Source: a virus
DNA: 40,878 bases
UHGV virus genome: UHGV-0182401
Direction: 5' to 3' (one strand)
This document shows, one piece after another, positions 36,253 through 37,786 of the stretch. Numbering within the stretch: the first letter of the stretch is position 1; each line of letters starts with the position of its first letter. The notes beneath the pieces are model-generated. The model worked only from the letters and a program-made list of their open reading frames with translations. It had not been told where the DNA came from and did not search any database. The position numbers were made by a program, and so were the translations under genes.

Positions 36253-36549
36253 TCAGTCATTACTGATAGCGCCATAGCGTGAGCGGTAATTACGCAGGCG
36301 CGGGTCGATATATTCAGGGAAGTGGGTATATGTGGCTTTGCGGAATGGTCGGATTGATGTCTGGTAAATTCGCTCTCGTTCTTCTTTCTCTGCAAGCCAT
36401 ATACAGTGGCGAAATTCCTTTTCTTCTTTCGTTTCCTGCGGTAGCGACATTATCCGGTCGTAGTTTTTCCTGAATTTATCCAGCACCTCCGATACGGAAT
36501 TGCCGGAACAGCGGCGCGCGTCGTCCGCACCATACAGAGGCGCTGGCAT
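36253..36549 (-). CDS. Hypothetical protein (98 aa)
   Basis: ORF with ATG start; first gene after ssb in the leftward operon. Confidence 0.45.
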   Translation of the reverse strand: MPAPLYGADDARRCSGNSVSEVLDKFRKNYDRIMSLPQETKEEKEFRHCIWLAEKEERERIYQTSIRPFRKATYTHFPEYIDPRLRNYRSRYGAISND

Positions 36550-36562
36550 GATTTTCTCCTGA

Positions 36563-37078
36563 TTAAATTGCGTGAATAGCGTGACGAGGGAAGGGGAGGG
36601 TTACTGGCGCAAAAGGTATATCGTCGTCAAACTCCATAGGTGGTTCGCTGTGATTTACCTGCTTCTGAGGCTGCTGTTTTTGTTGCTGACCGTTATTTCG
36701 CTGAGGTGAAGACTGTTCATTGCTTCCTTGCTTGCCACCAAGCATTTGCATGGTTCCACCAACGCCCACGATAACTTCGGTAGTGAACCGATCCTGTCCG
36801 CTTTGATCCTGCCATTTTCTTGTCCGCAATTTTCCTTCAAGATAAACCTCAGAGCCTTTTCGCAGATATTCGCTGGCAATTTCTGCCAGTTTCCCGCTCA
36901 TTACCACACGGTGCCACTCCGTCTGCTCCTTTTGCTCTCCAGTTTGCTTATCACGCCATTGTTCTGACGTAGCAACTATAAGGTTTGCAAATGCCGTTCC
37001 TGATGGTGAATATCTGATTTCTGGATCATGCCCAAGGCGACCAATAATGATCACCTTATTTACGCCTCTACTTCCCAT
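36563..37078 (-). CDS. ssb: Single-stranded DNA-binding protein, with a 15-aa extension beyond the canonical DDDIPF tail
   Basis: OB-fold N-terminus typical of SSB and acidic [11 protein letters not shown] near the C-terminus, followed in frame by [15 protein letters not shown] before the stop. Confidence 0.85.
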
Positions 37079-37786
37079 TTATGCCGCCTGTTTTAGTTCG
37101 TTAACTCTGATGTTCATTACCTGAACGCATTTAGCCTGCGCATCCTCATTGCCAGCCATTAATTGCCAGTCATGCTGATAACGTTCTATGAGTTTTTTCT
37201 TGTCAGTTTCTGTTGATGCATAATCGCTGAAGTCTTTCAGGATTTGTTCGCAGTCAACCGATGGAGATTTCTGGTTGGTATTTTCTGGTGATGGTTTGTT
37301 ATCTGATGCTGGGATTGCCCAGCCCGGCAGCGATGGAGGGAGCCAGTAAAATCCTGTTCCATCCTTCAGTTTTGCCCTGTGCCACCCCTGTTTTTTATCG
37401 GGAGATGTTTGTGCGAAACCTTCCTCAAGGTTATACAGATACCGACCGATTCCCCACTGAACGGCAGCGCGCTTCATTGCACCGGAACGACCACCTTTGA
37501 CGGCTTCTACCTGCGTGTTTTCAGCAGCATCCCATTTGGTTACCCATTCGGAATCAATCTTTATTGATATGCCGCATTCAACGCCGCCGTTGTTGGGAAT
37601 ATCGCGGTATTCATTGCGCCATCCTGCTTTGCCACAAACATCGTCAAGGCGTTTCATGATTGCCCGGTTCGTAACATAAGCCAGCACCATAGCCCACACC
37701 TTGCCATCGCGTGTTTTACCGCTTTGCTGTATTCGCCATTCGATATCTTCAGGGCAGAATGGCTCATCGAATTTGTTCAAATCCAT
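37079..37786 (-). CDS. Single-strand annealing recombinase (Rad52/Sak-like)
   Basis: GAMKRAAVQWGIGRYLY motif typical of Rad52-like annealing proteins; paired with ssb. Confidence 0.65.
   Translation of the reverse strand: MDLNKFDEPFCPEDIEWRIQQSGKTRDGKVWAMVLAYVTNRAIMKRLDDVCGKAGWRNEYRDIPNNGGVECGISIKIDSEWVTKWDAAENTQVEAVKGGRSGAMKRAAVQWGIGRYLYNLEEGFAQTSPDKKQGWHRAKLKDGTGFYWLPPSLPGWAIPASDNKPSPENTNQKSPSVDCEQILKDFSDYASTETDKKKLIERYQHDWQLMAGNEDAQAKCVQVMNIRVNELKQAA

What the first reader, a model, noticed from the sequence alone, without database searches (positions are those of the whole stretch)
36563..36610. SSB whose canonical C-terminal DDDIPF tip is masked by a 15-residue extension
The reading frame runs past the normally terminal [11 protein letters not shown] into [15 protein letters not shown] before the stop. 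The free C-terminal Phe of the DDDIPF tip is what bacterial SSB uses to recruit partner proteins, so an extended tail would be expected to change the interaction profile. It could be real biology, a lost stop codon, or a sequencing error.
Basis: partly seen in the sequence, partly recalled or inferred. Interest (0 to 1): 0.5.

Follow-up and report, generated by a model that had tools for sequence, protein, structure and literature searches.

The report
Phage SSB with a capped tip
The 15 extra residues after the DDDIPF tip of this phage single-strand DNA-binding protein are a real feature, conserved across about 116 clusters of closely related prophage SSBs and untested experimentally; they bury the terminal Phe that bacterial SSBs use to recruit partner proteins.

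Summary
A 171-aa SSB (minus strand, 36563-37078) runs 15 codons past [11 protein letters not shown] into [15 protein letters not shown].

It is not a sequencing error or a recently lost stop:
- Phages ECP1 and HK75 carry the same tail, as do 116 of the 120 closest SSB clusters (E. coli, Klebsiella, Salmonella, Citrobacter, Enterobacter).
- About 39% of a sample of viral SSBs with the MDFDDDIPF motif are extended.
- 403 of 5426 complete E. coli genomes match the tip-tail region.

The tail is constrained as a peptide. It is as invariant as the OB fold (0.41 vs 0.37 bits; linker 1.51), and pN/pS is 0.34 with near-saturated synonymous change. AlphaFold predicts it disordered, and it lies outside the SSB family profile.

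The tip/tail boundary is also the insertion site of a 444-nt HNH nuclease cassette (phage Sf6). The cassette gives SSB a stop right after IPF and reads into the same 14 residues itself.

Most likely (inferred) the tail is a short linear motif that removes the Phe carboxylate host partners need and offers a different docking peptide. The partner is unknown and no experiment exists.

I rate this a new variant of a known kind, of moderate to high interest.

The parts
36563..37078 (-). ssb gene, 171 codons plus stop: bacterial-type SSB with extended C-terminus
   Evidence: ORF list. PF00436 E 1.4e-37. TIGR00621 and PRK09010 hits. phrog_44. 99.8% identical to ECP1 gp52.
36764..37063 (-). OB-fold DNA-binding core (residues 6-105)
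   Evidence: Pfam match to residues 6-105. The AlphaFold model has strands and a helix at residues 21-103 with pLDDT 64-79. Mean column entropy is 0.37 bits.
36644..36742 (-). Gln/Pro-rich disordered linker (about residues 113-145)
   Evidence: pLDDT about 30. Mean entropy is 1.51 bits, the only fast-evolving part of the protein.
36611..36643 (-). acidic tip [11 protein letters not shown], here internal rather than C-terminal
   Evidence: Sequence. F150, P155 and F156 are invariant and P146, P147, M148, D151 and D152 nearly so across 47 homologues. The TIGR00621 profile ends here.
36566..36610 (-). 15-codon extension [15 protein letters not shown] (the cap); motif [AS]P[VI][TG]Lx[FY]P[RK]Hx[IV]xx[ILV]
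   Evidence: Present in 116 of 120 closest clusters. Entropy 0.41 bits. pN/pS 0.34 over 21 distinct tail DNAs. pLDDT about 30, not docked on the core. Outside both the SSB and the HNH family profiles.
36563..36565 (-). TAA stop of ssb. The same stop is used by the HNH gene in Sf6-type phages.
36608..36613 (-). Phe-Ala codon pair: insertion point of the 444-nt HNH cassette in Sf6-type relatives (empty site in this window)
   Evidence: Alignment of window, Sf6 and HK75. 26 HNH-occupied loci have the same junction.
36556..36560 (-). AGGAG ribosome-binding site of abc2, 3 nt after the ssb stop
   Evidence: Sequence TAATCAGGAGAAAATCATG. It is replaced as a block by GGACTTACATG plus an exonuclease gene in other phages.
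36253..36549 (-). abc2 anti-RecBCD gene, downstream neighbour
   Evidence: PF11043 E 4.1e-61.
37079..37786 (-). Rad52-like single-strand annealing protein gene, upstream neighbour; its stop abuts the ssb start
   Evidence: PF04098 E 5.6e-25. Its C-terminal 60 aa are shared among SAPs with different N-terminal parts.

Best explanation
The extension is a genuine, selected part of a large family of temperate-phage and prophage SSBs of Enterobacteriaceae. It is an intrinsically disordered 15-residue short linear motif, [AS]-P-[VI]-[TG]-L-x-[FY]-P-[RK]-H-x-[IV]-x-x-[ILV]-COOH, fused directly to a still-conserved DDDIPF tip.

Shown here: it is real, widespread, constrained at the peptide level, outside the SSB fold and the family profile, and not tied to any one neighbouring phage gene.

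Also shown: the Phe/Ala boundary is a module junction. In Sf6-type phages a 444-nt cassette (stop codon, GGAG, HNH-type nuclease ORF without its own stop) sits exactly there. That arrangement gives a free-tip SSB and a nuclease that reads into the last 14 tail codons and uses the old stop.

Inferred mechanism: the cap turns the terminal Phe into an internal residue and removes the alpha-carboxylate that the SSB-Ct pockets of ExoI, RecQ, PriA, chi, DnaG and RecO use. The phage SSB would then coat phage ssDNA without engaging the host SSB interactome in the normal way. The conserved hydrophobic, proline-rich peptide, probably together with the retained tip, would dock a different and still unidentified partner.

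Because capped SSBs sit next to Rad52-like, Erf-like, Sak4-like and RdgC-like genes, that partner is more likely a host protein or the SSB itself than one particular phage protein.
For: Reality and spread:
- Identical tail in ECP1 and HK75.
- About 90 SSB-fused loci, from at least 5 SSB N-terminal lineages, in an IMG/VR scan for the tail.
- 116 of 120 nearest SSB clusters are extended; the best-matching one has 1030 member sequences.
- 47 of 120 viral contigs found by the tip codons alone are extended, with divergent tails such as APIGLMYPRHLINVI and APIGLQYGRNFIHCI.
- 403 of 5426 complete E. coli genomes match the 156-nt tip-tail region; 132 of them cover at least 80% of it.

Constraint:
- Entropy is 0.41 bits for the extension, 0.37 for the OB fold and 1.51 for the linker.
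- pS 0.67, pN 0.23 and pN/pS 0.34, with A1, P2, L5, P8, R9, H10, I12 and I15 nearly invariant.
- Within the close family, free-tip alleles are seen only where the HNH cassette is inserted (P0026, P0028).

Structure: the tail is disordered in both carriers (pLDDT about 30 in SSB; 50-75 in HNH while the rest of that protein is about 98).

The tail belongs to the ssb locus, not to the HNH family:
- The phrog_2340 profile ends at gp26 residue 143.
- Most HNH homologues end at ...KPIY(E) without the tail.
- Only SSB and the Sf6-type HNH carry the peptide.

It is not a feature of the downstream gene: the tail is followed by either abc2 or a DnaQ-like exonuclease, with unrelated sequence starting right after the TAA.

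Need for the free carboxylate in canonical SSB-Ct pockets: PMC5872125 and PMC6393309.
Against: - No binding or genetic experiment exists, and the partner is unknown.
- AlphaFold gave no docking signal.
- No exclusive co-occurrence with any SAP type, SAP C-terminal domain, abc2 or exonuclease, so there is no comparative handle on a partner.
- If the aim were only to avoid host partners, losing the tip would do. Yet DDDIPF stays invariant, so simple masking is incomplete as an explanation.
- Phages with the HNH cassette live with an uncapped SSB, so the cap is dispensable in that setting.
- The pN/pS rests on 15 codons and 21 sequences with near-saturated synonymous sites.
- Part of the sampling was selected on the tail itself.
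Confidence: 0.55

Rival explanations
1. Sequencing or assembly error, or a very recent loss of the stop codon in this one genome.
For: None beyond the departure from the textbook SSB end. A 15-codon read-through is within chance expectation for any single lost stop.
Against: The same extension is found in ECP1, HK75, 116 of 120 nearest protein clusters, about 90 IMG/VR contigs and 403 E. coli genomes. There are synonymous differences between copies.
Confidence: 0.01
2. Neutral scar: the tail is a conserved mosaic boundary sequence, or the remnant left when the HNH cassette is deleted in frame. It is kept at the DNA level for recombination between modules and has no role as a peptide.
For: - The tail sits between exchangeable modules: different SSB bodies or HNH upstream, abc2 or exonuclease downstream.
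- 63 of 95 tails have identical DNA, while HK75 and the window differ strongly in the linker.
- The region is deletion-prone: there are SSB-HNH and HNH-exonuclease fusion proteins and an HNH pseudogene.
- Sf6 carries annotated boundary sequences elsewhere.
Against: - Across wider taxa the DNA changes but the residues do not (pN/pS 0.34; four Pro codons, four Ala codons and four Leu codons used at invariant positions).
- Substitutions are conservative: R/K, F/Y, I/V/L, H/Y.
- Divergent tails exist in lineages where no HNH was seen.
- The HNH family profile and fold end before the tail.
Confidence: 0.1
3. Pro-peptide or degron: the non-polar C-terminal end (…[HY][AV][IL]-COOH) directs proteolysis. 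This would either trim the cap to unmask DDDIPF at the right time or mark SSB, and the HNH nuclease, for turnover by a C-terminus-reading protease such as ClpXP.
For: - The tip remains invariant under the cap, as expected if it is used after unmasking.
- There is a conserved small residue plus Pro right after Phe, and an aliphatic last residue in nearly all variants, including the short caps in Pseudomonas and other genera.
- The same tail sits on a potentially toxic nuclease.
- The resemblance to the MuA and ssrA C-terminal tags is from memory only.
Against: Conservation covers all 15 positions, not just the last three. No protease site or adaptor motif was identified, and nothing was tested.
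Confidence: 0.15
4. The cap carries a beta-sliding-clamp-binding hexapeptide (PVTLPF, PVGLPF or PIGLQY), so the phage SSB, or the HNH nuclease when it owns the tail, is tethered to DnaN.
For: Positions 2-7 of the cap fit x-hydrophobic-[ST/G]-L-x-[FY]. Compare the epsilon subunit's clamp motif QTSMAF and its strong variant QLSLPL (PMC4478557). L5 is invariant and position 7 is always aromatic or His. The motif is in a disordered terminal segment, as clamp motifs usually are.
Against: The first residue is Pro, not Gln, and Q-to-A weakens the epsilon motif. The conserved PRHxIxxI part has no counterpart in clamp motifs. The resemblance is a lead only; no binding or co-folding was possible with these tools.
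Confidence: 0.1
5. The 45 nt act at the RNA or DNA level as a regulatory element for abc2 expression (structure, promoter or terminator), and the reading frame is incidental.
For: The ssb stop lies 13 nt before the abc2 start with an AGGAG between them, so translational coupling is likely.
Against: - The RNA fold is weaker than shuffled controls (z +1.33).
- There is no promoter- or terminator-like site on the coding strand.
- The tail also precedes a different gene with a different RBS.
- The pattern of change is codon-wise synonymous.
Confidence: 0.03

Closest known systems
Escherichia coli SSB and the bacterial SSB family (PF00436, TIGR00621)
   Same: OB-fold core, Gln/Pro-rich disordered linker and the acidic PPMDFDDDIPF tip. 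The top NCBIfam hit is PRK09010.
   Different: In the canonical family the tip is the C-terminus. Here 15 conserved residues follow it, so Phe156 has no free carboxylate. Plasmid SSBs in PLSDB align only up to residue 156 in most listed rows.
Phage Sf6 gp27 (SSB) plus gp26 (HNH-type endonuclease); the ES18 gp48/gp47 arrangement
   Same: 96% identical flanking DNA, the same SAP-ssb-abc2 module, and the same 14 residues [14 protein letters not shown] read to the same stop.
   Different: In Sf6 a 444-nt cassette splits tip from tail. SSB ends …NFDDSDIPF* and the tail belongs to the nuclease. The window has the empty site with the tail on SSB. The GenBank note on Sf6 gp26 already records '14 contiguous amino acids identical to … E. 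coli SSB', so the shared peptide was noticed in 2004 but not explained.
HK75-type lambdoid Rec module (Abc2 + SSB-1 + SAP), as classified in Genome Res 2025 (PMC12315714)
   Same: This window has exactly that module, and HK75 SSB carries the identical cap.
   Different: That paper states these SSB-1 proteins have not been studied experimentally. The passages I searched (SSB, Abc2, C-terminal) do not mention the C-terminal extension.
HK620 SSB (HkaK, 'SSB-2') with the terminal NDYPPF needed by Sak4 (PMC5928155)
   Same: A phage SSB in the same genomic position whose C-terminal peptide recruits the phage recombinase.
   Different: It is not homologous to this SSB. Its functional motif is at the very C-terminus, not capped.
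Lambda Red-beta C-terminal domain binding either Exo (internal Phe-94) or the SSB tip (PMC6393309)
   Same: Precedent that a phage annealing protein reads the SSB tail, and that a pocket of this kind can accept an internal Phe and is shared between a nuclease and SSB.
   Different: Different proteins. No evidence here that this SAP binds the cap, and capped SSBs also occur with unrelated SAPs.
Free-standing homing endonuclease genes of phages (HNH type)
   Same: Presence/absence polymorphism at one precise site between near-identical genomes, altered flanking target codons in occupied alleles (NFDDSDIPF), and pseudogenised and deleted copies.
   Different: The cassette lacks its own stop and fuses in frame to the host gene's last 14 codons. 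The Genome Res 2025 authors regard this HNH as a likely Rec-module nuclease rather than a selfish element. Cleavage specificity is unknown.

Membership tests
Bacterial-type SSB (PF00436 / TIGR00621) | N-terminal OB-fold ssDNA-binding domain | tested here: met
   PF00436 E 1.4e-37, residues 6-105. TIGR00621 179 bits against a cutoff of 54. The AlphaFold model shows the beta-barrel strands.
Bacterial-type SSB (PF00436 / TIGR00621) | Disordered Gly/Gln/Pro-rich linker followed by the acidic motif D-D-D-I-P-F | tested here: met
   Residues 113-145 have pLDDT about 30 and entropy 1.51 bits. [11 protein letters not shown] is at residues 146-156, with F150, P155 and F156 invariant.
Bacterial-type SSB (PF00436 / TIGR00621) | The acidic motif is the extreme C-terminus, so the last Phe has a free alpha-carboxylate | tested here: not met
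   15 residues follow Phe156. The family profile ends at residue 156.
Bacterial-type SSB (PF00436 / TIGR00621) | Homotetramer that binds ssDNA and recruits partners through the tip | not testable with these tools
   Needs biochemistry. Only single-chain prediction is available.
Short linear interaction motif in a disordered tail | Short, disordered on its own, more conserved than the flanking disorder, conservative substitutions | tested here: met
   pLDDT about 30. Entropy 0.41 vs 1.51 bits in the linker. pN/pS 0.34. Variants R/K, F/Y, I/V/L.
Short linear interaction motif in a disordered tail | An identified binding partner | tested here: inconclusive
   No exclusive co-occurrence with SAP type, SAP C-terminal domain, abc2 or exonuclease. 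Binding itself is not testable here.
Beta-clamp-binding motif (QL[SD]LF / QLxLxL type) | Gln at position 1, hydrophobic at 2, Leu/Met at 4, Phe/Leu at 5 or 6 | tested here: inconclusive
   PVTLPF and PIGLQY fit positions 2, 4 and 6 but have Pro instead of Gln. Reference motifs are QTSMAF and QLSLPL.
Homing endonuclease insertion site (for the Phe/Ala junction) | Same gene with and without the endonuclease cassette at one precise position in otherwise near-identical genomes | tested here: met
   Window vs Sf6: 96% identical flanks and a 444-nt insert right after the Phe codon. 26 occupied and about 90 empty sites in IMG/VR.
Homing endonuclease insertion site (for the Phe/Ala junction) | The inserted gene encodes a nuclease of a homing-endonuclease family | tested here: inconclusive
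Homing endonuclease insertion site (for the Phe/Ala junction) | The enzyme cleaves the empty allele near the insertion site and the cassette spreads in mixed infection | not testable with these tools
   Needs cleavage and co-infection assays.

The most novel reading that the evidence does not exclude
Capped-tip SSBs are a distinct class of mobile-element SSB. The cap would be a selectivity filter that hides the DDDIPF tip from the host SSB interactome (ExoI, RecJ, RecQ, PriA, chi…) while recruiting one specific partner through the new peptide. That partner could be the beta clamp via the PVTLPF/PIGLQY hexapeptide, or phage annealing proteins whose pocket accepts an internal Phe. Analogous shorter caps (APLHPLAGA in Pseudomonas, APEWR in Rhizobium and Devosia) would be independent versions of the same trick. 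The HNH cassette would act as a natural switch between capped and uncapped SSB.
Probability: 0.25. Interest if true: 0.75.

Novelty: new variant of a known kind. Interest (0 to 1): 0.6.

Why it matters
The free C-terminal Phe of DDDIPF is treated as the universal handle by which bacterial SSB organises replication, repair and recombination proteins. It is also the handle that phage annealing proteins used in recombineering read.

This family keeps that handle intact but buries it under a conserved 15-residue peptide. It comprises about 116 clusters of closely related prophage SSBs, and the tip-tail region is matched in roughly 7% of complete E. coli genomes. Apparently the family has never been examined.

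If the cap blocks host partners or recruits a new one, three things follow:
- It would explain why phages that could use host SSB carry their own.
- It would give a natural tool for separating SSB's DNA-coating role from its recruiting role.
- It could matter for portable recombineering systems that pair an annealing protein with an SSB.

The question is directly testable with two peptides and a stop-codon mutant. The HNH cassette provides a natural capped/uncapped pair.

Tried and rejected
1. Tail as part of the downstream abc2 unit. Rejected: the sequence after the TAA is either abc2 or an unrelated exonuclease gene.
2. RNA structure, promoter or terminator in the region. Nothing found: z +1.33, and no sites on the coding strand.
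3. Partner by gene co-occurrence. I clustered upstream and downstream ORFs of 175 tip-bearing loci, the SAP N- and C-terminal parts separately, and ran tblastn for the SAP C-domain, abc2, exonuclease and HNH. No exclusive association with the cap emerged.
4. AlphaFold of SSB with a 47-sequence alignment, looking for the tail docking on the OB fold. The tail came out disordered, mean pLDDT only 51.9, which is uninformative about binding.
5. AlphaFold of the HNH protein, asking whether the tail is part of its fold. It is not.
7. Tail as a portable tag on many proteins. Rejected: only SSB and the Sf6-type HNH carry it.
8. Literature. No paper in the library contains the peptide. The Sf6 genome paper (PMID 15136040) is not held. 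The MGE Pol-SSB paper concerns unrelated SSB extensions.
9. The 50%-identity representative search returned many frameshifted or truncated metagenomic proteins and was of limited use.
10. The genome contigs pattern was short, and only 22 of 122 matches were SSBs.

Full report
**What is there**

The finding's coordinates are the 3' end of a minus-strand gene. ORF 36563..37078 encodes a 171-aa protein ending …[29 protein letters not shown]. It is a bacterial-type SSB: PF00436 at E 1.4e-37 over residues 6-105, plus phrog_44 and TIGR00621.

The TIGR00621 profile is matched from end to end by residues 4-156, so the family model stops at the Phe of DDDIPF and residues 157-171 are extra.

The gene sits in a recombination module. 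A Rad52-like annealing protein gene (37079-37786, PF04098) lies upstream, with its stop abutting the ssb start. The anti-RecBCD gene abc2 (36253-36549, PF11043) lies downstream, 13 nt after the ssb stop and behind an AGGAG.

The region is 99.8% identical to Escherichia phage ECP1 and 96% identical to Shigella phage Sf6. The module is the 'HK75 type' of a recent survey of lambdoid Rec modules. That survey says these SSBs have not been studied experimentally, and the passages I searched do not mention the extension (PMC12315714).

**It is not an error or an accident**

- ECP1 gp52 is identical. HK75 SSB, whose linker DNA is strongly diverged, has the identical 15 residues.
About 90 of these, plus the three annotated phage loci, have the tail fused to an SSB. 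At least five different SSB N-terminal lineages are represented.
- Of the 120 best clusters in the 5.8-billion-protein search, 116 are extended. They come from E. coli, Klebsiella, Citrobacter, Enterobacter and Salmonella, and fit [AS]P[VI]TLPFPRH[AT][IV][HY][AV][IL]. A distant phage MAG has SPVGLQYGKHRVYAL.
- A scan anchored only on the tip codons (MDFDDDIPF), and so blind to the tail, gave 120 viral contigs. Of these, 73 stop right after IPF and 47 continue, with further tail types: [45 protein letters not shown] and APIGLQYGRNFIHCI.
- 403 of 5426 complete E. coli genomes match the 156-nt tip-tail region, almost always in chromosomes; 132 of them cover at least 80% of it. PGAP annotates the gene plainly as ssb.
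- Plasmid SSBs that reach the tip mostly align only up to residue 156.

**The peptide is under constraint**

In a 47-sequence alignment of homologues that are 73-95% identical to the window's SSB, mean column entropy is 0.37 bits in the OB fold, 1.51 in the linker, 0.36 in the tip and 0.41 in the extension.

Over 21 distinct tail DNAs, Nei-Gojobori pS is 0.67 and pN is 0.23, giving a ratio of 0.34. Positions A1, P2, L5, P8, R9, H10, I12 and I15 are almost invariant although they use three to five different codons each. Replacements are conservative: R/K, F/Y, I/V/L and H/Y.

Within the close family, the only free-tip alleles are those with the HNH cassette described below. I saw no allele with a simple nonsense mutation at the boundary.

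The RNA of the region folds less well than shuffled controls (z +1.33), and there is no promoter or terminator signal on the coding strand. The constraint is therefore on the protein.

AlphaFold2 with the alignment models the OB fold modestly (pLDDT 64-79) and leaves residues 106-171 at about 30, with no docking. The extension behaves as a short linear motif at the end of the disordered tail.

**The tip/tail boundary is a module junction used by an HNH cassette**

In Sf6 the SSB (gp27) ends …PPMNFDDSDIPF*. The next gene (gp26, 159 aa) ends …[22 protein letters not shown], the same 14 residues on nearly the same DNA and using the same stop.

The three-way alignment shows a clean 444-nt insert right after the Phe codon. 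It consists of TAG, GGAG, a short spacer and an ORF with no stop of its own, and it replaces the Ala codon.

Twenty-six IMG/VR loci have this arrangement. Nearly all have the variant tip NFDDSDIPF, with an extra Ser codon and several synonymous changes just upstream of the insert.

The tail is not native to the nuclease family:
- The phrog_2340 profile ends at gp26 residue 143.
- Most homologues end …HKHNKPIY(E) or with unrelated short ends. Only the Sf6-like subgroup has the tail, in variants (…AIHAL, …AIYAI) that mirror local SSB tail variants.
- In the AlphaFold model, residues 1-140 have pLDDT about 98 while the tail drops to 50-75.

One copy has an in-frame stop at codon 10 (L005). SSB-HNH and HNH-exonuclease in-frame fusions also exist. 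This looks like the gain, decay and loss cycle of a mobile endonuclease gene, although others regard this HNH as a working Rec-module nuclease.

Only SSB and this HNH carry the peptide. The HNH most likely owns the tail simply because of where it landed. Reading on to the old stop would also keep the termination site 13 nt before the abc2 start; that is my inference.

The GenBank note on Sf6 gp26 ('14 contiguous amino acids identical to … E. coli SSB') shows the shared peptide was seen in 2004. I found no paper that contains the peptide or discusses it, and the Sf6 genome paper itself is not in the library.

**What it probably does**

Established knowledge: the SSB-Ct pockets of ExoI, RecO, chi, PriA and DnaG bind the ring of the last Phe and make an ionic contact with its carboxylate. 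Red-beta is proposed to do the same (PMC5872125, PMC6393309). Fifteen residues after that Phe remove the carboxylate, so canonical binding should be lost or much weakened. That step is an inference, not a result.

Masking alone does not explain two facts. DDDIPF stays invariant under the cap, and the cap's own sequence is conserved.

My best reading is a re-specified interaction hub: host partners are kept off, and a new partner is bound through the cap, perhaps together with the tip.

Capped SSBs occur next to Rad52-like, Erf-like, Sak4-like (AAA_24) and RdgC-like genes. They occur with or without abc2, the DnaQ-like exonuclease and the shared SAP C-terminal domain. The partner is therefore more likely a host protein or the SSB itself than one phage protein.

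Three more specific ideas remain open, and none was testable here:
- A selectivity filter that still allows pockets accepting an internal Phe, as the Red-beta C-terminal domain does with Exo Phe-94.
- A clamp-binding-like hexapeptide: PVTLPF or PIGLQY compared with QTSMAF or QLSLPL, but lacking the Gln.
- A C-terminal degron or removable pro-peptide.

**Wider picture**

Among 50%-identity representatives with a recognisable tip, 15 of 87 have something after IPF.

A genome scan for DDIPF followed by Ala-Pro found short caps in other Proteobacteria: Pseudomonas (APLHPLAGA, APISRLLLNII), Rhizobium and Devosia (APEWR), Paenalcaligenes, Endozoicomonas, and Proteus and Providencia (APIGLPYPRHAIYVI). 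Capping of the SSB tip may be a recurrent theme on mobile elements. The pattern forced the Ala-Pro, and I did not check the context of these loci.

**Verdict**

Error and accident are excluded. The extension is a conserved, selected and experimentally uncharacterised variant of the SSB tail, sitting at a junction that a nuclease cassette exploits. The mechanism is inferred, the partner is unknown, and the decisive experiments are simple.

I rate it a new variant of a known kind, with interest 0.6.

Noticed in passing
L005:9900-10740 (IMG/VR contig IMGVR_UViG_2713896799_000014): The Sf6-type HNH gene after ssb has an in-frame stop at codon 10 (MKICSRCHQ*KEERDF…) while the rest is intact. It is a decaying cassette or a sequencing error. 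This contig has the same length as the window (40878) but is a different phage.
   Followed up: partly
proteins P0297, P0284, P0306, P0319, P0331, P0334: In-frame deletion fusions around the cassette: SSB N-terminus joined to the HNH C-terminus plus tail, and HNH N-terminus joined to the C-terminus of the DnaQ-like exonuclease. The ssb-HNH-exo stretch is deletion-prone.
   Followed up: no
L026 and five other loci, ORF just upstream of ssb: A second, unrelated HNH_3 endonuclease gene (PF13392, 155 aa) is inserted between the annealing-protein gene and ssb. The ssb gene is therefore flanked by endonuclease insertion sites on both sides in different phages.
   Followed up: partly
window 37079-37260 (minus strand), last ~60 residues of the Rad52-like protein: This C-terminal segment (…DCEQILKDFSDYASTETDKKKLIERYQ…NELKQAA) is shared by annealing proteins with at least four unrelated N-terminal parts. 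That fits the 'Erf domain swap' noted for epsilon34 (PMC2629481). It is a candidate partner-binding domain, but it occurs with both capped and free-tip SSBs.
   Followed up: partly
L224-L341, e.g. L292, L313, L250, L283, L294, L229: SSBs in Pseudomonas, Rhizobium, Devosia, Paenalcaligenes and Endozoicomonas genomes carry other short peptides after DDDIPF (APLHPLAGA, APISRLLLNII, APEWR, APLLARCEYVI, APLYPRMVI). I did not check whether these are on prophages or under selection.
   Followed up: no
L132, L152: SSBs with the tail type …GLQ[FY]PAL… lie downstream of a 377-413-aa RdgC-like protein. The L132 copy, the one scanned, carries a C-terminal FtsK-gamma domain (PF04381 + PF09397), an unusual fusion.
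   Followed up: no
window 37079-37786 vs L001:2341-2952: RefSeq annotates the ECP1 annealing-protein gene as 612 nt, while the window has an uninterrupted 708-nt ORF like Sf6 and HK75. This is either a different start call or a real difference in ECP1.
   Followed up: no
L131, L139, L151, L169, L203, L206, L215: The tail variant [14 protein letters not shown][VL] is always followed by a 99-aa gene (MLTPQQVLACLRRDSRNHITESW…) with no Pfam match, in the position where abc2 sits in the window.
   Followed up: no
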